IMG/VR virus record: IMGVR_UViG_3300046513_000221
Span: 1 to 64,000 of that record
Length of the DNA: 64,000 nucleotides
Direction: 5' to 3' (one strand)
DNA from: a virus
In this document: positions 3,774 to 29,144 of the stretch, piece by piece
Layout of the letters: every line of letters starts with the position of its first letter
How positions within the stretch are numbered: position 1 is the stretch's first letter
Position numbers and translations under genes: made by a program
Notes under the pieces: model-generated
The model's database searches: none
The model's input: only the letters and a program-made list of their open reading frames with translations
Told to the model about the DNA's origin: nothing

Positions 3774-4485
3774 TTTTCTGTGTTCCCAAATGTGAGTGAT
3801 TACAAAAAATAAGAGAGATGGCCCGATGCCGAAGCACCGAGCCTCTCAACTGCTTCCCTTTTCTGGTGGAGTGGGTCGCTATCTTCTTCTCGTCTGTTGC
3901 TACGTTGGATTTTGAGGTACAGCTGTGTCGTGTGTACTGCCGATACTGCCTTTTCGACCGTGTCCAGTCTACGTTTGGGTTCCACAGGCCACCATTTCGC
4001 CTGAATCGTTAAGCACCGCCTCGTGGCGGCTCTCTGGGTGATGTGATGAGCGCGTTTCAGCCCCATCCGGTACTCGCCCGGTACGTTACTGTGCTACGAG
4101 TCATAGGGAGGAAACCATTTGTCCGTGTCCCTACGAAGTTGATCCCTCAGTCCCCGACGGTCTGAAGAATTTTGATGCAAGAAGTGAGGTTGAGGTGGGT
4201 AGCTTAAAGGCTTCTTCTCCGCTCGTGTGAAGGGGTGGAGAGAAAGGACGCCTCCCTCCTACCCGGAGAGTGGATCCCAATTAGGTGCCTCAGCGAATCG
4301 ATAAGCTGACCCACCGAGGCGAGAACGGTTCTCGAACTAGGTTCGATCCCCATTGGACCGGATTAACGGTAACCCTTTCGGGCTGCTTGAGAACGGGGGT
4401 TCCGTGGAATTCCCCGTAGTTGTTAGATGAACCTTTCAGTCCATCATCGATATAATATATCAACAAGTGACCTGCAGATACGGTC

Positions 4486-17595: not shown

Positions 17596-19767
17596 TTACA
17601 GGGTACGATTTTCCGGAAAGCTAGATGCTGCAGCCTCCAGGAACAAACGCACCGTGGTGTTGATGTACGCCCTGTTCATCGGGCCGGTACGGGCCAGACG
17701 GACGTTGATCGCACGCGGGTCGATGTGCGGCCACGCGTACTCCAGAACGGACAGTGCTTGCTTCACCGTCAGAGCCGACATGGTACGGCTGCGGATCAGC
17801 TCCGCGAGTTCCCAAGGAGGGGTCTCGGAACTGAAGAACACACCGTTCGCCGCCTCCGCAGGTGCCTTCGGAATGAAGGTGTCCGGGAACTTCACACGGT
17901 TCTTGTGCTGTTCGGCGAACAACTCGAAGTCACGCTTGCGGTTCAGGACATCGACCGCTCCGCTGCCGTGGTTACGGGTCTGCAGCAGATTGATGTAGGT
18001 CTCCAGAGCACTGACAGCCAAGGTGTCCTTGGCACGCAGGATGAAGACCGGCTCGTCGCTCGGGATTGCATGCCCGGTGCTGCGGACGTACAGTACGCCG
18101 TCACTGATCCCGTACTTAGGATCCTGCGACACAGGGAACGTCGCCTTCTTGGTACCGTAGGCGGTGTTCTCGATGTAGCGACGAGACAATTCCTTCATGC
18201 GTAGCAGGACAGCCAGCTCGTGATCGTAGTACGACATGTTGTCGCGACTCTGGTCATCGTCATGCTCGCGAGCGTCCTCGATGTACTTCTTGAACGAATC
18301 GTAGTGCGACACGATGTCCTTCAGAGCCTCGATCGCGCCATAGCTGAAGAACAGTGCACCGTCCACCAGCGGCAGCTTATCGTCGAAGTCCTTGCTGATC
18401 ATGGTCCGCAGAGCCTCGATCATGTAGGGATTGCTGTCAGTGAAGCGTTCCGCGATTTGACTCGCTGCGAAGAACGCATCGTCGCGCCACGCCTGTACCT
18501 CGGCGCGAGTGTAGACACGCTGGCCCTTCTGGAGGGCGCTGCCGTCGCGGTAGTCCTGTGCCAGATTTTTGTCCGCCACCTTGTCCACCGAGCGACCGAT
18601 CTCGGCCAAAACGGTACCAACCTTGTCGCGGATGCCCTCGATGGATACCGACTTCAACACCTCGTCCAAGGCGTTGAGAAGTGCCACCTCTGGCGGCTCG
18701 GAGCGGTAGATGCTGGTCGCCTTGGGGAAGCGGCGGCACAACTCGTCCAACATGTAGCTCAGACGGAGGCTAGGGGTGCCAGCACCGCCATTCTCCAACT
18801 GGTTGATGCGCCACTCCATCCACTTGATGCGGTCGCGTGCGCCGGTGACGACGGCCTCGTGTTGCAGGTCGCCGCGCATCAGCATACGTACCATACCGGC
18901 CATCTCGTCGTGGGACAGATGACCAAAGGCCAGTTCCGACAGCTCCGTGGAGTGCAGAGCGGTGCCGCTCTCGGAAACCGGAACCTGTGGTCCCTCCAGC
19001 AGCTTACGACGCAGATCGTCGGCCTCAGCACGAGATGCCTCCAGAGCCTTGTTCAGGCGATCGACTTCCTTCTCCAGAGCGGAACGACCCGGAGGAGCAC
19101 TGCTGACCTTGCTGTCCTTCAAGTTGAACAGCTGACCGAAGCCGGTCCACTTGCCGTCGTTCCAGTGCTCGACGAAGCGCATGTCGTTTGGCGTGCGGCG
19201 GGTGATGCAGTAGTGGCCGGTGACGCCGTCGGCACGGTCGGTCAGGTACGGAGCGCCGGGGTTTACCATGTCCAGAGGGACCAGATGGAAGCCGACGTTC
19301 AGGTGATTGCCAGTGCCCACGTCGAAGCCGACCTGCGTGTCGGTGATCTCGACGAACTTGCCGAAGAACAGGAATGCCTTGCGGAAGTTCTCGATGGGAG
19401 CAACGCTGTTGATGTCCAGCATGGCCTCGACCTCGTACACCGAGAATGCCTTCGAGTACTCGGCGAATTCCTCGTTCGAGTAGCCACGGTTGACCATCTC
19501 GTTATTGAGCAGGACGGTCAGGCCGGAGCGGAAGTCGATCTGCACACCGCGATCGGTTCCGTGGTCCTCGTCGGTGTTCAGGGAGATGGTCACACGACGT
19601 GCCAGCATGTCTTCGAGCAGCATCCACAACATGTCGTAGACGGCATTGTAGGCTTTTGTAGGATCCTTGAGCTGGAGCTCCACCTCGATCGGAGGGTTGA
19701 AGGCGGTGAAGCTTACACGGACGTTCTGACCCTCTTCGTGGGGCAGGATTTTATACGAGAAAAGCAT
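17596..19767 (-). CDS. large hypothetical protein (723 aa)
   Basis: Listed start is TTG; first ATG (MLFSYKILPHEEG) at 19765-19767 with TTTGGGAGTACAA RBS. Confidence 0.65.
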   Translation of the reverse strand: MLFSYKILPHEEGQNVRVSFTAFNPPIEVELQLKDPTKAYNAVYDMLWMLLEDMLARRVTISLNTDEDHGTDRGVQIDFRSGLTVLLNNEMVNRGYSNEEFAEYSKAFSVYEVEAMLDINSVAPIENFRKAFLFFGKFVEITDTQVGFDVGTGNHLNVGFHLVPLDMVNPGAPYLTDRADGVTGHYCITRRTPNDMRFVEHWNDGKWTGFGQLFNLKDSKVSSAPPGRSALEKEVDRLNKALEASRAEADDLRRKLLEGPQVPVSESGTALHSTELSELAFGHLSHDEMAGMVRMLMRGDLQHEAVVTGARDRIKWMEWRINQLENGGAGTPSLRLSYMLDELCRRFPKATSIYRSEPPEVALLNALDEVLKSVSIEGIRDKVGTVLAEIGRSVDKVADKNLAQDYRDGSALQKGQRVYTRAEVQAWRDDAFFAASQIAERFTDSNPYMIEALRTMISKDFDDKLPLVDGALFFSYGAIEALKDIVSHYDSFKKYIEDAREHDDDQSRDNMSYYDHELAVLLRMKELSRRYIENTAYGTKKATFPVSQDPKYGISDGVLYVRSTGHAIPSDEPVFILRAKDTLAVSALETYINLLQTRNHGSGAVDVLNRKRDFELFAEQHKNRVKFPDTFIPKAPAEAANGVFFSSETPPWELAELIRSRTMSALTVKQALSVLEYAWPHIDPRAINVRLARTGPMNRAYINTTVRLFLEAAASSFPENRTL

Positions 19768-19781
19768 TTGTACTCCCAAAA

Positions 19782-20261
19782 TTATTCGTGATCTTCGTCT
19801 GCCGGTTCCATCTCAACGAGGCGGATACCGTAGTCTTTGTTGTCGCCGTTCATGCCGACAGTCTTGTGGATGAACAGGAGGCGACGGAGGATCTCCACCG
19901 CATCGCCGTTCAGGTTGATGCCGTTCAGCAGCTGGTTGCGGATCTGATCGCCCTCGCGGACGAGACTGGCGCTGTTCTCCTCCAGATGCTCAGGAATCTC
20001 CTTCTCATCGACGATGCGAGGAGCCAGCTCCATACGGAACTTCTCCATCAGCTTGAGCTTCTCCTCGTCGCGGACCTGCCAGATGTGCTCGATCATGGCG
20101 TCCTTACCGCGCAGACCGCCCTCGATCCGCTTGGCCTTGGCGAGGATCCCGGCCTCGTCGCTCTCGTTTGCGACCACATGGATCACGGACGGGAAACCCG
20201 GTGCGGCGCACCAGAACTCCACGCGGTAGTACTCCATCGGCTTACGTGCAAATAAACTCAT
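19782..20261 (-). CDS. hypothetical protein (159 aa)
   Basis: ATG verified. Confidence 0.55.
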   Translation of the reverse strand: MSLFARKPMEYYRVEFWCAAPGFPSVIHVVANESDEAGILAKAKRIEGGLRGKDAMIEHIWQVRDEEKLKLMEKFRMELAPRIVDEKEIPEHLEENSASLVREGDQIRNQLLNGINLNGDAVEILRRLLFIHKTVGMNGDNKDYGIRLVEMEPADEDHE

Positions 20262-20303
20262 AGCTCTACTTCCAATTAAAAAGTCAACGCATAACCCATA
20301 TGA

Positions 20304-20312
20304 ATAATATAT
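20304..20312 (-). promoter_or_regulatory. AT-rich promoter-like motif (ATATATTAT on minus strand)
   Basis: Intergenic; 43 nt upstream of the 19782..20261 start. Confidence 0.35.
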
Positions 20313-20336
20313 GAGCTATGCGTCTTTCAGATCGAT

Positions 20337-21509
20337 TTACGCCGCCAGAGCGAACATGTCGTCAACTGGACCCGGCAGCGGTTTGGCGTCCTTCAGGTCG
20401 GTCTTGGTCTTGGTCAGAGGATCATCGACCAGACTGCGAGCACGACCGCGCTGAGAACCCTTGCTGCTGCGGGTCTTGCAACCGCCGCCGACGCGCTTCG
20501 TGAACTTGAAGAAGTCCTCCGGGATGAAGGCAGTCAGGGTCTTCGTCTCGGCGTCATAAACGAAGGATGCATTGATGCCGACTTGTACCTCGTCGAACTT
20601 CTCCAGATCTGGCTCGGAGATATTCGACTGCGCCAGAGTCGAGGACTGTACTGCGCCCTGTGCCGTCAGCTTGAAGCCCTTCGGATGGGCCTTCAGCACC
20701 AACATCTGGTTCTTGTCCAGCTCGACGGAGATGTTGCGACCATTGTTGGCGTCGTCGATGTACAGGGAGTCAGCAATCTCCTTGACCATCTTCGAGCCGA
20801 AGGTCACGGTCAGACGACCGAGATTATCGCCCTTGATCTTGCGGTTGTAGCTATAAAACAGCTTCGCCACGATGCGATGATGGTTCGGATACACCGAGTC
20901 CATCAGGAACTTCACCGGGTCGGCGCGGATCAGAGCGATCTGGTCGCTAAACCACAGGCGCAGCTCTGGGTATTTCAGCTGGTTGACCAGACGCGTGTAG
21001 ATTGCCAGATACTCCTTGCCGGATTGGATGATACGGTATCCGGTGCCACGGGAGCCGTCGTTCGTGAAGACCATCTCATGGATGTCGAAGAACGGATGTT
21101 CAGCCAGCGGTGTCTTGCGAGAGCAGCTGTAGAGCGACTTCATGCCGAAGCCGGTCTGCGTGATCTTCATCGCGCCACCCTTCTTACCCTTGCTCTTGAA
21201 CCACAAAGGGATAACCGGGGCGTAACGCTTACCTTCCTTCAGATCGGGGGCCGGGAAGCGGGTACCGGTGTCCATCTGACCGTGACCGTCAGCGGCCAGA
21301 GTCATGGCCCAGATACGGGTGAAGAGTCCTTCGTTGCCGTTCCCGGCACCGTTGCTCTTGCGCAGCCCCTTCGTCACCAGCTCCAGCGATGGCAGCGCGA
21401 TGCGGGACATCGCTCGGAGGATCGGGTCGTTGCGCGAGATCGTCGGCAGGTTCTTAAAGCGGAAGGTGTCCTCGACGCCTTCGATGGTTGCTTGATTGGT
21501 GTCTTTCAT
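20337..21509 (-). CDS. hypothetical protein with basic C-terminal region (390 aa)
   Basis: ATG verified; no recognisable catalytic motif. Confidence 0.6.
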   Translation of the reverse strand: MKDTNQATIEGVEDTFRFKNLPTISRNDPILRAMSRIALPSLELVTKGLRKSNGAGNGNEGLFTRIWAMTLAADGHGQMDTGTRFPAPDLKEGKRYAPVIPLWFKSKGKKGGAMKITQTGFGMKSLYSCSRKTPLAEHPFFDIHEMVFTNDGSRGTGYRIIQSGKEYLAIYTRLVNQLKYPELRLWFSDQIALIRADPVKFLMDSVYPNHHRIVAKLFYSYNRKIKGDNLGRLTVTFGSKMVKEIADSLYIDDANNGRNISVELDKNQMLVLKAHPKGFKLTAQGAVQSSTLAQSNISEPDLEKFDEVQVGINASFVYDAETKTLTAFIPEDFFKFTKRVGGGCKTRSSKGSQRGRARSLVDDPLTKTKTDLKDAKPLPGPVDDMFALAA

Positions 21510-22252
21510 TTTTCTTCTTTCTTCATTGGTAGAGTGATGACGCCGGTGAGAGGATTCAGGATCTGGTCGGACTGTCCGCGAAGCGACAGATCGATCTTGC
21601 CCTTGAAGAATTCCTTCTCGTGGTATGCCACCCCCATGAGGTCTCGCAGTGCGGGTAGTTCGTAGGAGAAGAAGCCAGCCCAGTACATCTGGAAGCAGCT
21701 GCTCTCGAACTCCTTCTCGGAGAACGAGTCCTTACCCTTCTTGACAACGCCATGGACGTTGCCGGTGTCGAATATCACATGAGTTCCTCGTCGGAGTGGA
21801 ACCCTTACTCCCGAGAGCGGGAAAAGCAGATCCCACTCCTCGTCATCTTCCATCCAGTGGACGAAGAAAGCCTTGTCGGCGAACAGCTCGTAGCTAGTGT
21901 CTACGTGAAAAAAAGAACCTTCACACGCGTTCAGCGCGGGTTCACTACACTTGTCGTTATCTTCACACAACAGCCCCACCTCCTCCGCCCGTAGGCGGAG
22001 GAGGTTAGTGTAGGGATTTGGGGATGCTATGTGTGACGTGAAGACGTCACCGGTACCGGCCAGTGGGTTGGCCGCGTGAAGTTGGTCGATCCAAGAAGCA
22101 TAGAGCTCCTCGTTAATCGCTGGTGTGTCGATATGAGCGGTAATCACTTTGAGGCTCACATTGCGGGCATTCCCCTTGGGGAGCGCAACGTAGAGTTGAT
22201 TCGCTACATCGACACCCTTTTGTATTCCAGGTATCGCACTACTATCCATCAT
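21506..22252 (-). CDS. hypothetical protein with HxD...H motif (possible 2OG-Fe(II) oxygenase-like, 248 aa)
   Basis: FHVDTS ... THVIFDTGNVHG resembles a 2-His-1-carboxylate facial triad. Weak evidence. Confidence 0.5.
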   Translation of the reverse strand: MMDSSAIPGIQKGVDVANQLYVALPKGNARNVSLKVITAHIDTPAINEELYASWIDQLHAANPLAGTGDVFTSHIASPNPYTNLLRLRAEEVGLLCEDNDKCSEPALNACEGSFFHVDTSYELFADKAFFVHWMEDDEEWDLLFPLSGVRVPLRRGTHVIFDTGNVHGVVKKGKDSFSEKEFESSCFQMYWAGFFSYELPALRDLMGVAYHEKEFFKGKIDLSLRGQSDQILNPLTGVITLPMKKEEK

Positions 22253-22368
22253 TCACCTCTACACACAAATACTCCCAAATAGTCATCGGTTCGGTGGTCA
22301 CAGCCGTGATCCGTACTGGCATCTAGCTATTCCCTTCGTACTGAAGGAATTCGAAGTCGTGACTATTT

Positions 22369-22788
22369 CTAAACATGGATCGAATTACCTTGCCTAACGG
22401 TAACTTTTCGATCCTGCGCGTGTAATGATGCACCCGTTGAGTGCATGCCCAACGCATGACGCCGATGTTGAACATCCGTGACGTCATCTCCCGGAGATCC
22501 GGGACCGGAACCATCTTCTACCGACTCGCACCCAAGCGCTCGGTCTCCCACCACGGCCATGCAGCCAACGGGATGGTGAAGACGGGTGTTGTAGACTTCA
22601 CCTTTCGGTGTCGCCTCCTGAAGCAGCTGTTCTACCGCCGCTTTGGTGTTGGTATCGCCGACTTTGATGTCGACTAACGGGAAACCATCCGATACAGCAT
22701 GGACGGAATGGGTGCTACCGTTGAGGGAGGTCGTGACCTCTGCCTCGGGCGCTGCTAAACTAGCGCCTTCTTTTATACCGGAACACAC
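22369..22788 (-). CDS. doubtful ORF inside a 1-kb ORF-poor island
   Basis: Longest ORF in 22253-23319; no RBS; mediocre composition. Confidence 0.15.
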   Translation of the reverse strand: MCSGIKEGASLAAPEAEVTTSLNGSTHSVHAVSDGFPLVDIKVGDTNTKAAVEQLLQEATPKGEVYNTRLHHPVGCMAVVGDRALGCESVEDGSGPGSPGDDVTDVQHRRHALGMHSTGASLHAQDRKVTVRQGNSIHV

Positions 22789-23319
22789 AAAATACCTCTA
22801 CTGAAGCATACTGCAATGATACTCTCGGAGTTAGGCAACGACTTCTTACCGTTCCGTGGTTGCAGGGAAATCCTGCACTTGCGACCGATTCGCTTACACT
22901 TGACTTGGATGCCACACATCCGTTGTTGCCAAGTAGGGAATTCACGGCCTTGTATTTGGCGCTAGCATCTTTCCGGGACACAGCTGGTTCACGTACCTGC
23001 GACGGGTGAGAACGCCCGGTACCTTACGAAAAACCATCACGCCTTGCCCTTCCGGGCTGTATCACGAGTACGGAGACGAACCGGGTCTCACCCCGATTTG
23101 ATCGTCTCCGCGCCTGAAGGATCCTACTCTCCAGACTAGCCCCGTGTTGTTGATGAAACGACATCCCTCTCTTGAGTTCAGCCGTACCTCCACGTCACGC
23201 CATCGCCGGAACTCCGGTTGCGCGTGGAATTGTATGAAGTACCTCCGATTACGGATTAACATCCGATCGTCGAACGAGTCCGTCAGGTATCAGGCCTCCA
23301 ATCGACGACCACCAGTACT

Positions 23320-23706
23320 CTACAGATCTTGCATAATCTCTGCCATGGTGCGTGATGCACCGACGAAGCACATTGTCTTACCGAAGCTATCATCGTACGT
23401 ATGCTCAGAATCGAGCATACGCTTCCACATGGCGTGATTGTACGCCATAGCGTACTCACCGTAGTAGAAGTCCTGCCGGATGATCACGGTCTTCCAACCG
23501 CGCTTCGATGCGAACTGTGCTGCCGTCACAACCAACTCATCGTCAGATACCTTGCGCGAGACAAGGCCATCAAACGGGAGCAGTACAACCCTGATGGAGC
23601 GGCGACCTACACCGCTCACAATGTACGACGGATGGATATCCAATCCGTACGGACGGCGGGTTTGATCCGCGTCACGTTTCTGTCTCACGATGTGAGGCTG
23701 TTTCAT
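23320..23706 (-). CDS. ASKRGWK-motif family protein A (128 aa)
   Basis: GGGAGA RBS; paralogue of 28806..29129 (shared ...AAxxASKRGWKxVIxxxDxxYGExA...NxAM...). Confidence 0.55.
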   Translation of the reverse strand: MKQPHIVRQKRDADQTRRPYGLDIHPSYIVSGVGRRSIRVVLLPFDGLVSRKVSDDELVVTAAQFASKRGWKTVIIRQDFYYGEYAMAYNHAMWKRMLDSEHTYDDSFGKTMCFVGASRTMAEIMQDL

Positions 23707-23766
23707 ACTTCTTTTCTCCCAGAGGCTTATGTAGCCACGAACAGGCGGGTCTCCCCGCCCTCAGAA

Positions 23767-24324
23767 TTACTTTTTGAGCCGCTTCAGCTCGTAGAACTGG
23801 CACAGGTCGCTGACGAACTCGTTCTTGGTCGCATCTTCGATGATGTCTTCCAGCAATGCAAAGGTATGATTCACCCGCATTCTTACATCACCCGGTGCCG
23901 TGAACTCGACGTTCTCCTCGTTGAGGACGAAGAACGCTTGTCGGATGGCCGACATCATGCGGAAGATCAACGGCAGAGCCTTGTGCAGCTCGTCGTGGGT
24001 TCCCATGATGCTCTGAACGACCTCGATGTACTTGCGGTCCTGCATGGCAAGCACGTCATCAGCCTTACCCATCAGCTGCTTGTAGATCTCGCGCTGCTCT
24101 ACCGGTACACGTCCCTCAGTGTACTCGGTGTGCATGTGCGCCACGGCGGTCTTGATGACGCCGGAGAAATCAGCCAGTTGGCAGGACTTTGCCGCCACAA
24201 GGGCTTCCAAATGTTGAGCGCGTTTGTTCGCTTCTTCATAGCGTGCCCAGCCTTGATCAGCCGAGAGTTGCAGGGCTGCAATTACACGATGCAGACGGGT
24301 CTCTTCTTCGTTTTTGACTTCCAT
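23767..24324 (-). CDS. hypothetical protein (185 aa)
   Basis: Start MEVKNEEE at 24322-24324; the listed 5' extension is unlikely. Confidence 0.55.
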   Translation of the reverse strand: MEVKNEEETRLHRVIAALQLSADQGWARYEEANKRAQHLEALVAAKSCQLADFSGVIKTAVAHMHTEYTEGRVPVEQREIYKQLMGKADDVLAMQDRKYIEVVQSIMGTHDELHKALPLIFRMMSAIRQAFFVLNEENVEFTAPGDVRMRVNHTFALLEDIIEDATKNEFVSDLCQFYELKRLKK

Positions 24325-24388
24325 GATGCTCCCATAGGTACTAAATTCTTGAGTTTTCGAGTCTCCACTCGGATTTCTCTTCATTTTT

Positions 24389-24397
24389 ATAATATAT
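24389..24397 (-). promoter_or_regulatory. AT-rich promoter-like motif (ATATATTATA on minus strand)
   Basis: Intergenic; 65 nt upstream of the 23767..24324 start. Confidence 0.35.
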
Positions 24398-28805: not shown

Positions 28806-29129
28806 TTAACCGTTTGCCATGCCACTATCGCCGACGTAGCCGATAGTGATGCCGCCGTAACGATGACCCTTCCAGACGTCAATGCACATCGCCAGATTGA
28901 AGATCTCGGCTTCCTCGCCGTACAGGTTATCGGGGTGAACGATGACCTTCTTCCAACCGCGCTTGCTTGCTTCCAGAGCCGCCAGCTTGATCAGATCCTC
29001 TTCCTCCATACGCCACTCGACGATGTGGAAGGGGTGCATCACCACAACGACTGCGCGCTTGCCGTAGCCGCGTACGAGGTGTTGGAACCGGTGCTGGTAC
29101 ATCTTTTGTTTCTTCTCGATGGTTATCAT
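28806..29129 (-). CDS. ASKRGWK-motif family protein B (107 aa)
   Basis: Start MITIEKK with GGGAGTAAC RBS (the listed start is TTG 4 codons upstream); paralogue of 23320..23706. Confidence 0.55.
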   Translation of the reverse strand: MITIEKKQKMYQHRFQHLVRGYGKRAVVVVMHPFHIVEWRMEEEDLIKLAALEASKRGWKKVIVHPDNLYGEEAEIFNLAMCIDVWKGHRYGGITIGYVGDSGMANG

Positions 29130-29144
29130 CGTTACTCCCAATGG

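What the first reader, a model, noticed from the sequence alone, without database searches (positions are those of the whole stretch)
22253..23319. A second, 1-kb ORF-poor island between the oxygenase-like gene and the ASKRGWK-family gene
About 1070 nt with only short, mutually overlapping ORFs of poor quality; the longest is 22369..22788 (139 aa, no RBS). It contains nested inverted repeats, e.g. CGGAGACG ... CGTCTCCG around 23070-23112 with an internal GAGAC-N7-GTCTC hairpin. It is either a large structured RNA or the remains of a decayed gene or selfish element. Two such islands in an otherwise gap-free region stand out.
Basis: seen in the sequence. Interest (0 to 1): 0.5.

Follow-up and report, generated by a model that had tools for sequence, protein, structure and literature searches.

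The report
ORF-poor spacer inside early phage operon
A 1-kb stretch without a convincing gene sits inside an early operon of an uncultured jumbo phage related to AR9 and phiR1-37. It looks like a lineage-specific leftover of gene turnover, one doubtful short ORF plus untranslated RNA, and not like a large structured RNA, so it is only mildly interesting.

Summary
The island 22253..23319 is real and is the longest ORF-poor stretch in the window. Nothing tested supports one large structured RNA. Rfam gives no match. The ORF-free half folds no better than coding controls (z -2.1), and ensemble diversity is ordinary.

The island has two parts.
- **Left part (about 22370-22790).** It shows weak but significant codon periodicity (p=0.017). 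Two in-phase antisense ORFs share it. It has no homolog among 1.84 billion proteins. ORF78 (plus) has weakly gene-like codon usage and a terminator-like hairpin downstream, but no SD and no promoter.
- **Right part (22789..23319).** This is featureless non-coding DNA with one strong hairpin.

The island contains no AR9-type early promoter (ATATATTAT-N6-G) and no minus-strand terminator. It is therefore probably read through from the promoter at 24397 to the terminator at about 20286.

No relatives exist beyond two haplotypes that are 99.4% identical. They differ by 6 transitions and no indels, so conservation and covariation cannot be tested.

Best reading: a gene-turnover scar or marginal ORFan with untranslated flanks. 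Low to moderate interest.

The parts
22253..23319 (.). The ORF-poor island as a whole. It lies between two minus-strand genes and inside an early operon.
   Evidence: present without indels in all five related contigs
22369..22788 (-). ORF139 (GTG start, 139 aa). It has the same orientation as the operon, and its coding status is doubtful.
   Evidence: It has an SD; a >=5-nt SD occurs in 30% of genes and 5% of non-gene ORFs. Codon log-likelihood is -0.24 and -0.02, the value typical of shadow ORFs and below all 66 genes. Its only hit among 1.84e9 proteins is itself. AF2 pLDDT is 33.7. It was called as a gene in 2 of 5 contigs.
22794..22801 (-). GTAGAGGT, the Shine-Dalgarno-like 8-mer 5 nt upstream of the GTG of ORF139. 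The same 8-mer precedes the 248-aa gene at 22255-22262.
   Evidence: The wider similarity between the two initiation regions is not significant as an alignment (p=0.06).
22441..22677 (+). ORF78 (GTG 22441, or ATG 22456 giving 73 aa). It is antisense to ORF139 and in phase with it.
   Evidence: Its codon log-likelihood is +0.15/+0.20, with a six-frame profile like weak true genes. All 84 leave-one-out tests of window genes score best in their own frame. Its score lies in the top 1.5% of non-gene ORFs and the bottom 3% of genes. It has no SD and no promoter motif. No relatives were found. AF2 pLDDT is 53. It was called as a gene in 3 of 5 contigs.
22747..22778 (+). Terminator-like hairpin (8 bp) followed by TCTTTTAT, 70 nt after the ORF78 stop codon. 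On the minus strand no U-run follows it.
   Evidence: -12.6 kcal/mol, z -2.7. SNP 22749 weakens it to -8.0 in the second haplotype.
22789..23319 (-). ORF-free stretch of 531 nt with no coding signal in any frame. It is presumably an untranslated part of the early mRNA.
   Evidence: Six-frame codon scores are -0.4 to -1.0. There is no 3-periodicity. MFE z is -2.1 on both strands.
23070..23111 (-).
   Evidence: -27.6 kcal/mol, z -3.5. SNP 23095 changes C-G to U-G.
22373..22417 (-). Hairpin at the 3' end of ORF139 (8-bp plus 6-bp helices, 9-nt loop).
   Evidence: -17.8 kcal/mol, z -4.3, 0 of 200 shuffles. SNP 22390 falls in the loop.
24382..24397 (-). AR9-type early promoter ATATATTAT-N6-G, with the inferred start site at G 24382. 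It drives the operon that contains the island.
   Evidence: all ten ATATAT[TA]AT sites in the window have G exactly 6 nt downstream. The AR9 consensus is AAATATATATTAT-N6-G (PMC5312081).
20286..20324 (-). The first strong minus-strand terminator downstream of the island (-20.6 kcal/mol hairpin plus U5). It overlaps the next early promoter.

Best explanation
The island is not a single object.

**What it is.** It is a lineage-specific internal segment of an early operon in a jumbo phage related to phiR1-37 and AR9.

**How it is expressed (inferred).** The injected virion RNA polymerase starts at the early promoter at 24397, with the start site at G 24382. It reads through a 185-aa gene, the 128-aa gene, the island, the 247-aa gene and the 390-aa gene, and stops at the terminator near 20286. 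The island therefore becomes an internal part of a roughly 4.1-kb polycistronic mRNA.

**Left 40% (about 22370-22790).** This is a short coding or recently ex-coding segment, read as ORF139 on the minus strand or ORF78 on the plus strand. It is poorly adapted to the phage's codon usage and has no relatives. I read it as a young, foreign or decaying accessory gene.

**Remainder.** The other 531 nt plus 116 nt are untranslated RNA carrying a few stable hairpins. At most these affect mRNA stability, processing or translation of the downstream gene.

**Shown here.** The anatomy, the promoter and terminator motifs, the absence of homologs, and the coding statistics.

**Inferred only.** Transcription, lack of translation, and lack of a dedicated function.
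For: - **Phage identity.** Major capsid protein is 46% identical to phiR1-37 and 36% to AR9/PBS1; split RNAP beta and DNA polymerase genes are present.
- **Promoters.** Ten AR9-type promoter sites all have G at N6+1. None lies in the island on either strand. The putative late motif GATAACC is also absent.
- **Terminators.** No minus-strand terminator lies in the island; the next strong one is at 20324-20286.
- **Coding signal.** 3-periodicity is confined to 22253-22880, with max chi2 15.0 and permutation p 0.017. That is comparable to the weakest real neighbouring genes.
- **Rest of the island.** No coding signal in any frame.
- **ORF139.** It has an SD but shadow-like codon usage.
- **ORF78.** It has the better codon score but no SD.
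- **Homology.** No homolog for any six-frame segment in Pfam, PHROGs, NCBIfam, PADLOC or PDB, in 50,697 phage genomes, or in 72,556 plasmids. HMMER of ORF139 against 1.84e9 proteins finds only itself.
- **Composition.** Tetranucleotide composition is atypical for the window (rank 13 of 315) and CTAG is not depleted, as expected for non-coding DNA.
- **RNA structure.** Signals are ordinary.
Against: - SNP density in the island is 6/1067 = 0.56%. This is below third-codon-position divergence in the same haplotype pair: 3.3% pooled and 1.1% in the two flanking genes. That hints at constraint. However, divergence is patchy; L003 and L004 are identical to the window from 21337 to 23814. The local test is therefore weak (roughly p 0.003-0.25, depending on the neutral rate assumed).
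- The 1000-nt minus-strand fold has z -5.0, stronger than eight coding controls.
- All four SNPs at predicted paired positions keep pairing on the minus strand, while three of five break it on the plus strand.
- An intact 139-codon ORF with a good SD is not what random decay predicts.
- No transcription data were available.
Confidence: 0.42

Rival explanations
1. The functional element is a small antisense (plus-strand) transcription unit. An RNA runs rightward through 22441-22677 and ends at the terminator at 22747-22778. It either encodes the 73-78-aa protein or acts as an antisense RNA against the early operon, for example by late shut-off of early mRNA through duplex formation or transcriptional interference.
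For: - ORF78 is the best-scoring of the six frames, and every one of the 84 leave-one-out gene tests also scores best in its true frame.
- A terminator-like hairpin with a T-run lies on the correct strand 70 nt after the stop codon. It is the only strong plus-strand one in an intergenic position within the minus-strand gene block.
- Gene callers chose this ORF in 3 of 5 contigs.
- Antisense RNAs of 100-400 nt and antisense late promoters are documented in the closest cultured relatives, phiR1-37 and AR9 (PMC4848604; PMC5312081).
Against: - No SD is present.
- Neither an early promoter motif nor the putative late motif lies upstream.
- The codon score of 0.15-0.20 is in the tail of both the gene and the non-gene distributions.
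- Terminator-like sites occur by chance at about 2.6 per 3.5 kb.
- SNP 22749 weakens the stem from -12.6 to -8.0 kcal/mol in one haplotype.
- No relatives were found.
- AF2 pLDDT is 53.
Confidence: 0.2
2. ORF139 is a genuine ORFan protein, recently acquired or newly arisen, and is translated from the early mRNA. The 531 nt upstream and 116 nt downstream are simply long untranslated spacers.
For: - It has GAGGT-N5-GTG within the same GTAGAGGT 8-mer as the next gene.
- An SD of this quality occurs in 30% of genes and 5% of non-gene ORFs.
- It has the orientation of the operon.
- The ORF spans most of the periodic region.
- It was called as a gene in 2 of 5 contigs.
Against: - Its codon score equals the median of non-gene ORFs and lies below all 66 genes. 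Under a model trained only on low-GC3 accessory genes it is 2.8 sd below the gene mean.
- GC1 exceeds GC3 (0.66 against 0.53), as in shadow ORFs.
- No homolog exists in 1.84e9 proteins.
- AF2 pLDDT is 33.7.
- An open frame of this length is expected by chance in the island with p about 0.2 (my calculation from the stop frequency).
- Of its two SNPs, one is non-synonymous (P14S) and one is synonymous.
Confidence: 0.15
3. The island, or most of it, is a functional long structured non-coding RNA or cis-regulatory RNA on the minus strand, made early in infection.
For: - Minus-strand MFE z is -5.0 for 22290-23289. The plus strand gives -2.9 and coding controls give -0.8 to -3.3.
- All six SNPs are compatible with the minus-strand MFE structure: two are unpaired and four convert one valid pair into another.
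- SNP density is lower than at third codon positions, and there are no indels.
- A second ORF-less island in the window (3774..4485) has its own early promoter and terminator. This phage therefore probably makes at least one long non-coding transcript.
- phiR1-37 expresses an ORF-less intergenic RNA, misc_4.
Against: - No Rfam match at E<=10.
- The ORF-free half has z -2.1 on both strands.
- Local z-scores and ensemble diversity match coding controls.
- In energy terms the excess is 34 kcal/mol, and one coding control reaches 33.
- The SNP pairing result has p about 0.125.
- The island has no promoter or terminator of its own.
- No relatives exist, so covariation cannot be tested.
Confidence: 0.15
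4. It is a DNA-level element: a replication origin, a packaging site, or the scar of a mobile or selfish element such as a decayed homing-endonuclease gene.
For: It is non-coding DNA of unusual tetranucleotide composition in a hypervariable accessory region.
Against: - No iterons, direct repeats longer than 19 nt or AT-rich tract are present, and GC is 53.6%.
- There is no GC-skew turning point at the island on the scale of the window.
- No endonuclease, transposase or integrase remnant appears in any frame.
- No second copy exists in the window or in the phage, plasmid or IMG/VR collections.
- No presence/absence polymorphism was seen.
Confidence: 0.05

Closest known systems
Non-coding and antisense RNA species of Yersinia phage phiR1-37: misc_1-10, including the 296-nt ORF-less misc_4 between g099 and g100 (Leskinen et al. 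2016, PMC4848604)
   Same: It comes from the same phage lineage; the capsid protein is 46% identical. It is also an ORF-less or antisense transcribed stretch of a few hundred nt, of unknown function, inside a densely packed jumbo-phage genome.
   Different: No sequence similarity was found by blastn or tblastn against all phage records. The genomic neighbourhood is different. At 1067 nt the island is 3-10 times longer. Here there is no transcription evidence at all.
Early operons of Bacillus phage AR9, driven by virion RNAP from AAATATATATTAT-N6-G promoters, with internal and antisense late promoters (Lavysh et al. 2017, PMC5312081)
   Same: The promoter core and the spacing to a G start site are identical at ten sites in the window. 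Polycistronic early units end at hairpin/U-run terminators.
   Different: In my reading of the find-passages of that paper, no 1-kb untranslated segment inside an early operon came up. The AR9 late motif AACA-N6-T[AG] was not found upstream of ORF78 by eye. This phage has 55% GC and shares no DNA similarity with AR9.
Large ornate phage-associated ncRNAs in Rfam (GOLLD, ROOL and similar)
   Same: They are of comparable size (0.5-1 kb), lack ORFs and reside in phages.
   Different: No covariance-model match to any of the 4227 Rfam families appears even at E<=10. No exceptional thermodynamic signal was found. No tRNA is adjacent.
Decaying accessory genes, ORFans and freestanding homing-endonuclease relics in hypervariable regions of large phages (general knowledge, not looked up here)
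   Same: It shows residual codon periodicity over only part of the region, has no homologs, and lies among lineage-specific hypothetical genes with weak codon adaptation (GC3 0.64 against 0.8 for core genes).
   Different: No recognisable parent gene exists. The longest ORF is still intact and keeps an SD. No indels separate the two haplotypes.

Membership tests
Any described RNA family (Rfam 15), including group I/II introns, GOLLD, ROOL, riboswitches and ribozymes | Covariance-model match at or near the family's gathering score | tested here: not met
   There are 0 matches at gathering thresholds over the whole window. There are 0 matches at E<=10 over 21900-23700 on both strands.
tRNA / tmRNA | ARAGORN-detectable cloverleaf or tmRNA | tested here: not met
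   0 genes in the 64-kb window
Structured non-coding RNA (generic) | Folding energy clearly below that of shuffled sequence and of coding controls | tested here: inconclusive
   The 1000-nt minus strand has z -5.0. The halves give -2.1 and -3.8. Controls range from -0.8 to -3.3. Ensemble diversity is ordinary.
Structured non-coding RNA (generic) | Compensatory base changes across homologs | not testable with these tools
   Only two haplotypes exist, differing by 6 transitions. All six are compatible with minus-strand pairing, but p is about 0.125. No more distant relatives were found in any collection.
Protein-coding gene: ORF139 (22369..22788, minus) | Ribosome-binding site at the correct spacing | tested here: met
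   GAGGT lies 5 nt before the GTG.
Protein-coding gene: ORF139 (22369..22788, minus) | Codon usage of the genome, with the ORF's own frame scoring best of six | tested here: not met
   Its own frame scores -0.24 (core-gene model) and -0.02 (accessory-gene model). This equals the shadow-ORF mean and is lower than the antisense frame.
Protein-coding gene: ORF139 (22369..22788, minus) | Homologs or a recognisable domain | tested here: not met
   Only a self-hit among 1.84e9 representatives. Pfam, PHROGs, NCBIfam, PADLOC and PDB give nothing.
Protein-coding gene: ORF78 (22441..22677, plus) | Codon usage of the genome, with the ORF's own frame scoring best of six | tested here: inconclusive
   Its own frame is best, at +0.15/+0.20. 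That value is in the bottom 3% of genes and the top 1.5% of non-gene ORFs.
Protein-coding gene: ORF78 (22441..22677, plus) | Ribosome-binding site and a promoter on its strand | tested here: not met
   No SD precedes GTG 22441 or ATG 22456. Neither ATATATTAT nor GATAACC occurs in the island.
Pseudogene of a known gene | A translated search reconstructs a disrupted homolog | tested here: not met
   Six-frame segments were searched against Pfam, PADLOC, all phage genomes, all plasmids and the rest of the window by tblastx. Nothing scored below E 0.05.
Gene read with a reassigned stop codon | One frame is interrupted by only one kind of stop codon | tested here: not met
   Every frame has 10-15 stops and more than one kind of stop codon; the three minus-strand frames each mix TAA, TAG and TGA.
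Intrinsic terminator (plus strand, 22747-22778) | GC-rich hairpin immediately followed by a U-run | tested here: met
   An 8-bp stem at -12.6 kcal/mol with the tail UCUUUUAU. This is a consensus-level match only, and chance sites are frequent.
AR9-type early transcription unit | ATATAT[TA]AT-N6-G promoter upstream on the same strand, with no intervening terminator | tested here: met
   The promoter lies at 24397-24382. No minus-strand terminator occurs until 20324-20286. Transcription itself was not observed.
Mobile or selfish element | Terminal repeats, element-encoded enzyme, extra copies, or empty sites in relatives | tested here: not met
Replication origin | Iterons or an AT-rich unwinding element, with a skew inflection | tested here: not met

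The most novel reading that the evidence does not exclude
The island is a roughly 1-kb lineage-specific structured non-coding RNA. It is made early in infection by the virion RNA polymerase of a jumbo phage of the phiR1-37/AR9/PBS1 group (cultured members have uracil-containing DNA, from my own knowledge; not tested here). It is kept under purifying selection and unrelated to any Rfam family. Together with the stand-alone ORF-less early unit at 3774..4485, it would mean this phage devotes about 1.7 kb of a 64-kb region to long early ncRNAs.
Probability: 0.15. Interest if true: 0.55.

Novelty: new member of a known kind. Interest (0 to 1): 0.27.

Why it matters
If the ordinary reading holds, the value is practical. 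The window can be annotated with AR9-type early promoters and terminators. The island should be labelled as an untranslated or marginal-ORF segment and not as a gene or an RNA family.

If the minority reading holds, the island and the other one at 3774..4485 would be early-expressed long non-coding RNAs in a phage group whose transcription machinery is unusual. That would be worth an RNA-seq experiment.

Because the region has no relatives in any collection searched, sequence analysis alone cannot settle the matter.

Tried and rejected
**Searches that found nothing**
- Relatives of the flanking genes were sought in IMG/VR, JGI metagenome contigs and GTDB genomes.
- The same three collections were searched with ORF78.
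- Exact DNA patterns from two hairpins had no hit in IMG/VR.
- blastn and tblastn against phages and plasmids found nothing.

**Leads that gave no usable comparison**
- Distant homologs of the 248-aa protein (P0002 and P0003, 35-36% identity) lie in unrelated gene contexts and tell nothing about the island.
- Exact-protein look-ups gave only five contigs that are 99-100% identical, representing two haplotypes.

**Technical failures, not evidence**
They did not even recover proteins known to be in the database.
- One folding script timed out.

**Readings considered and rejected**
- Stop-codon reassignment.
- Intron or split gene. Rfam is negative, and the homologs of the 248-aa protein are stand-alone proteins of similar length.
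- DGR, CRISPR or an array of repeats.
- A paralogous decayed copy of a window gene.
- Similarity between the two islands.
- Replication origin.
- Significant homology between the initiation regions of ORF139 and the 248-aa gene beyond the shared 8-mer.
- CTAG enrichment as a sign of foreign DNA. CTAG sites are concentrated in intergenic DNA generally.

**Uninformative**
- Single-sequence AlphaFold models of both ORFs had pLDDT of 34 and 53.
Full report
**Context**

The window comes from an uncultured jumbo phage.
- Its major capsid protein is 46% identical to that of Yersinia phage phiR1-37 and 36% identical to those of Bacillus phages AR9 and PBS1.
- It encodes split RNA polymerase beta subunits, a split family-B DNA polymerase and a tail sheath.
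- GC content is 55.5%, and core genes have GC3 of about 0.8.
- No DNA similarity to any of 50,697 phage records was found.

**Checking the observation**

Positions 22253..23319 lie exactly between two minus-strand genes: the 128-aa gene (23320..23706) and the 248-aa gene (21506..22252, probably starting at ATG 22249).
- This is the longest stretch in the window without a codon-biased ORF. The second longest is 3774..4485.
- Each of the six frames carries 10-15 stop codons of mixed type. That is about the random density and rules out a gene read with a reassigned stop.
- The longest ORF is 22369..22788 (139 aa).
- The inverted repeat is real. On the minus strand it forms a two-tier hairpin of -27.6 kcal/mol, with z -3.5 and 1 of 200 shuffles folding as well.
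- One detail is wrong. The 139-aa ORF does have a ribosome-binding site, GAGGT five nt before its GTG. It lies within the 8-mer GTAGAGGT, which also precedes the 248-aa gene.

**Transcriptional setting**

The motif ATATAT[TA]AT occurs ten times in the window: nine on the minus strand upstream of minus-strand genes and one on the plus strand upstream of a plus-strand gene. All ten have a G exactly six nt downstream.
- This matches the AR9 early (virion RNAP) promoter AAATATATATTAT-N6-G(+1) (PMC5312081).
- The nearest site upstream of the island is at 24397, with an inferred start at G 24382. The next one downstream is at 20312.
- Strong hairpin/U-run terminators on the sense strand mark the ends of units elsewhere. 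The first on the minus strand after the island is at 20324-20286.
- The island contains no early motif and no copy of GATAACC. That motif recurs upstream of the capsid, sheath and RNAP-beta genes and is my tentative late motif.
- The island also contains no minus-strand terminator.

By inference the island is an internal part of a 4.1-kb early polycistronic transcript. It has no promoter or terminator of its own on that strand.

**Is anything coding?**

*Periodicity.* A GC-phase test shows 3-periodicity only in the left part, roughly 22253-22880. The maximum chi2 is 15.0, with p=0.017 against shuffles of the island. That is comparable to the weakest real neighbouring genes. From 22700 rightward there is none. 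Two ORFs share this region as in-phase antisense partners, so one is the shadow of the other.

*ORF139 (minus strand).*
- It has the SD and the orientation of the operon.
- Its codon log-likelihood is -0.24. All 66 reference genes score at least 0.016, with a mean of 0.54, and each scores best in its own frame.
- The median of 202 non-gene ORFs is also -0.24.
- Under a model trained only on low-GC3 accessory genes it scores -0.02. That equals the shadow mean and is 2.8 sd below the gene mean.
- HMMER against 1.84 billion representative proteins finds only the ORF itself.

*ORF78 (plus strand; GTG 22441 or ATG 22456).*
- It scores +0.15 and +0.20, the best of the six frames. That value sits in the tails of both the gene and the non-gene distributions.
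- It has no SD.
- A terminator-like hairpin with a T-run lies 70 nt after its stop on the same strand.
- No relatives were found.

*Other evidence.*
- Metagenome gene callers chose ORF78 in three contigs and ORF139 in two.
- Single-sequence AlphaFold models were uninformative, with pLDDT of 34 and 53.
- No other six-frame segment matches any Pfam or PADLOC profile, any phage or plasmid, or any other part of the window.

**Is it a large structured RNA?**

- Rfam gives nothing at any threshold, and there is no tRNA or tmRNA.
- Sliding 150-nt z-scores inside the island (-3.2 to +1.3) resemble those in the flanking genes.
- For 22290-23289 the minus strand has z -5.0 and the plus strand -2.9.
- Eight 1000-nt coding controls give -0.8 to -3.3.
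- In energy terms the excess is 34 kcal/mol, and one control reaches 33.
- Split in two, the ORF-free half (22789-23319) has z -2.1 on both strands. The excess lies in the ORF139 half, at -3.8.
- Ensemble diversity is 194, within the control range of 198-360.

The thermodynamic case is weak.

**Comparative evidence**

Exact-protein look-ups retrieved five contigs from two JGI and three Logan samples. They are 98.9-100% identical to the window and have no indels in the island. Cluster listings show that no further variants exist.
- Only two haplotypes differ in the island. They differ by six transitions, at 22390, 22749, 22836, 22868, 22934 and 23095.
- On the minus-strand MFE structure, two fall in unpaired positions. 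Four change one valid pair into another: C-G to U-G twice, G-U to A-U, and A-U to G-U.
- On the plus strand, three of five break a pair.
- Given that all six are transitions, the chance of this pattern is about 0.125. It is a hint of the strand, no more.
- SNP density in the island is 0.56%. Third codon positions diverge by 3.3% over 12 kb, but by only 1.1% in the two flanking genes.
- Other contigs are identical to the window across the whole neighbourhood, which shows a recombination mosaic.

Constraint on the island is therefore possible but not shown. No more distant relatives of the flanking genes exist in any searchable collection. The distant homologs of the 248-aa protein sit in unrelated contexts.

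**Other readings**

- There are no iterons and no AT-rich tract, and GC skew does not turn at the island on the scale of the window.
- There is no internal similarity to the other island or to any window sequence.
- No copy exists elsewhere.
- Tetranucleotide composition is atypical (rank 13 of 315), and CTAG occurs at the random rate. CTAG is generally concentrated in intergenic DNA here, so this says only that the island is non-coding.

**Conclusion**

The island is real but composite.
- Its left 40% is a short coding or formerly coding segment of uncertain strand. It is poorly adapted and has no relatives.
- The remainder is untranslated sequence with a few stable hairpins.
- The whole island is most likely read through as part of an early operon.

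I put about 0.42 on this reading, a gene-turnover scar or marginal ORFan with untranslated flanks. I put 0.20 on a functional plus-strand antisense unit. That reading is plausible because phiR1-37 and AR9 both make antisense RNAs. I put 0.15 on ORF139 being a real protein, 0.15 on a functional long structured RNA, and 0.05 on a DNA-level element.

The closest documented analogues are the ORF-less and antisense RNA species of phiR1-37 (PMC4848604). The island shares no sequence with them. Strand-specific RNA-seq with end mapping, together with read-level population analysis of the source metagenomes, would settle the matter.

Noticed in passing
window 3774..4485 (minus strand): The other ORF-poor island looks like a stand-alone early transcription unit of about 640 nt. 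It has an AR9-type promoter, ATATATTAT-N6-G, at 4460->4445. It also has a strong minus-strand terminator: a hairpin at 3847->3815 (-22.9 kcal/mol) followed by UCUUAUUUUUUG. No ORF with an SD or coding signal lies between them, and no gene is called there in the two fetched contigs that span it. It has no Rfam match, and its MFE z is -3.25. This makes it a better long-ncRNA candidate than the island under review. The two haplotypes are identical there, so there is no comparative signal.
   Followed up: partly
window, ten sites: minus strand 47735, 43928, 38718, 30961, 24397, 20312, 16398, 4460, 331; plus strand 53148: The early promoter motif ATATAT[TA]AT always has a G six nt downstream. The core and spacing are the same as in the Bacillus phage AR9 virion-RNAP promoter, even though this phage has 55% GC and shares no DNA similarity with AR9.
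   Followed up: partly
window 20286..20324 (minus strand): A terminator hairpin (-20.6 kcal/mol plus U5) carries the next early promoter, ATATATTAT, in its loop. The end of one early unit and the start of the next therefore overlap.
   Followed up: no
window about 21975..22004, inside the 248-aa gene: A perfect 11-bp GC-rich hairpin, CCTCCTCCGCC-CGTA-GGCGGAGGAGG, lies within coding sequence. It is the strongest local folding signal in the neighbourhood (150-nt z -6.4 on the minus strand, -3.9 on the plus strand).
   Followed up: no
window 40336 (-), 49943 (+), 55757 (+), 63732 (-): [AG]ATAACC recurs 30-40 nt upstream of the RNAP-beta, major capsid, g55782 and tail-sheath genes. Five of its 15 occurrences fall in the 10% of the window that is non-coding. 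It may be a middle or late promoter element and differs from the AR9 late motif AACA-N6-T[AG].
   Followed up: partly
window 23320..23706 and 28806..29141 (minus strand): The 128-aa protein upstream of the island has a paralog in the window that shares the motif A(S)KRGWK-(T/K)VI. Neither has a hit in Pfam, PHROGs, NCBIfam, PADLOC or any phage genome.
   Followed up: no
window 22261..22273 and 22783..22795 (minus strand): The UG-rich motif GUAUUU(U)GUGUGU occurs only twice in the 64 kb. Both copies lie next to the GUAGAGGU Shine-Dalgarno-like 8-mer: one just upstream of the SD of the 248-aa gene, and one covering the GTG of ORF139. It could be a shared translational control element or chance.
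   Followed up: partly
L004, corresponding to window about 18565..20275: Contig L004 (JGI 3300046615) loses register with the window below about 20275, which points to an indel near the intergenic region at 20262-20336. Gapless comparison then shows mismatches at most positions.
   Followed up: no
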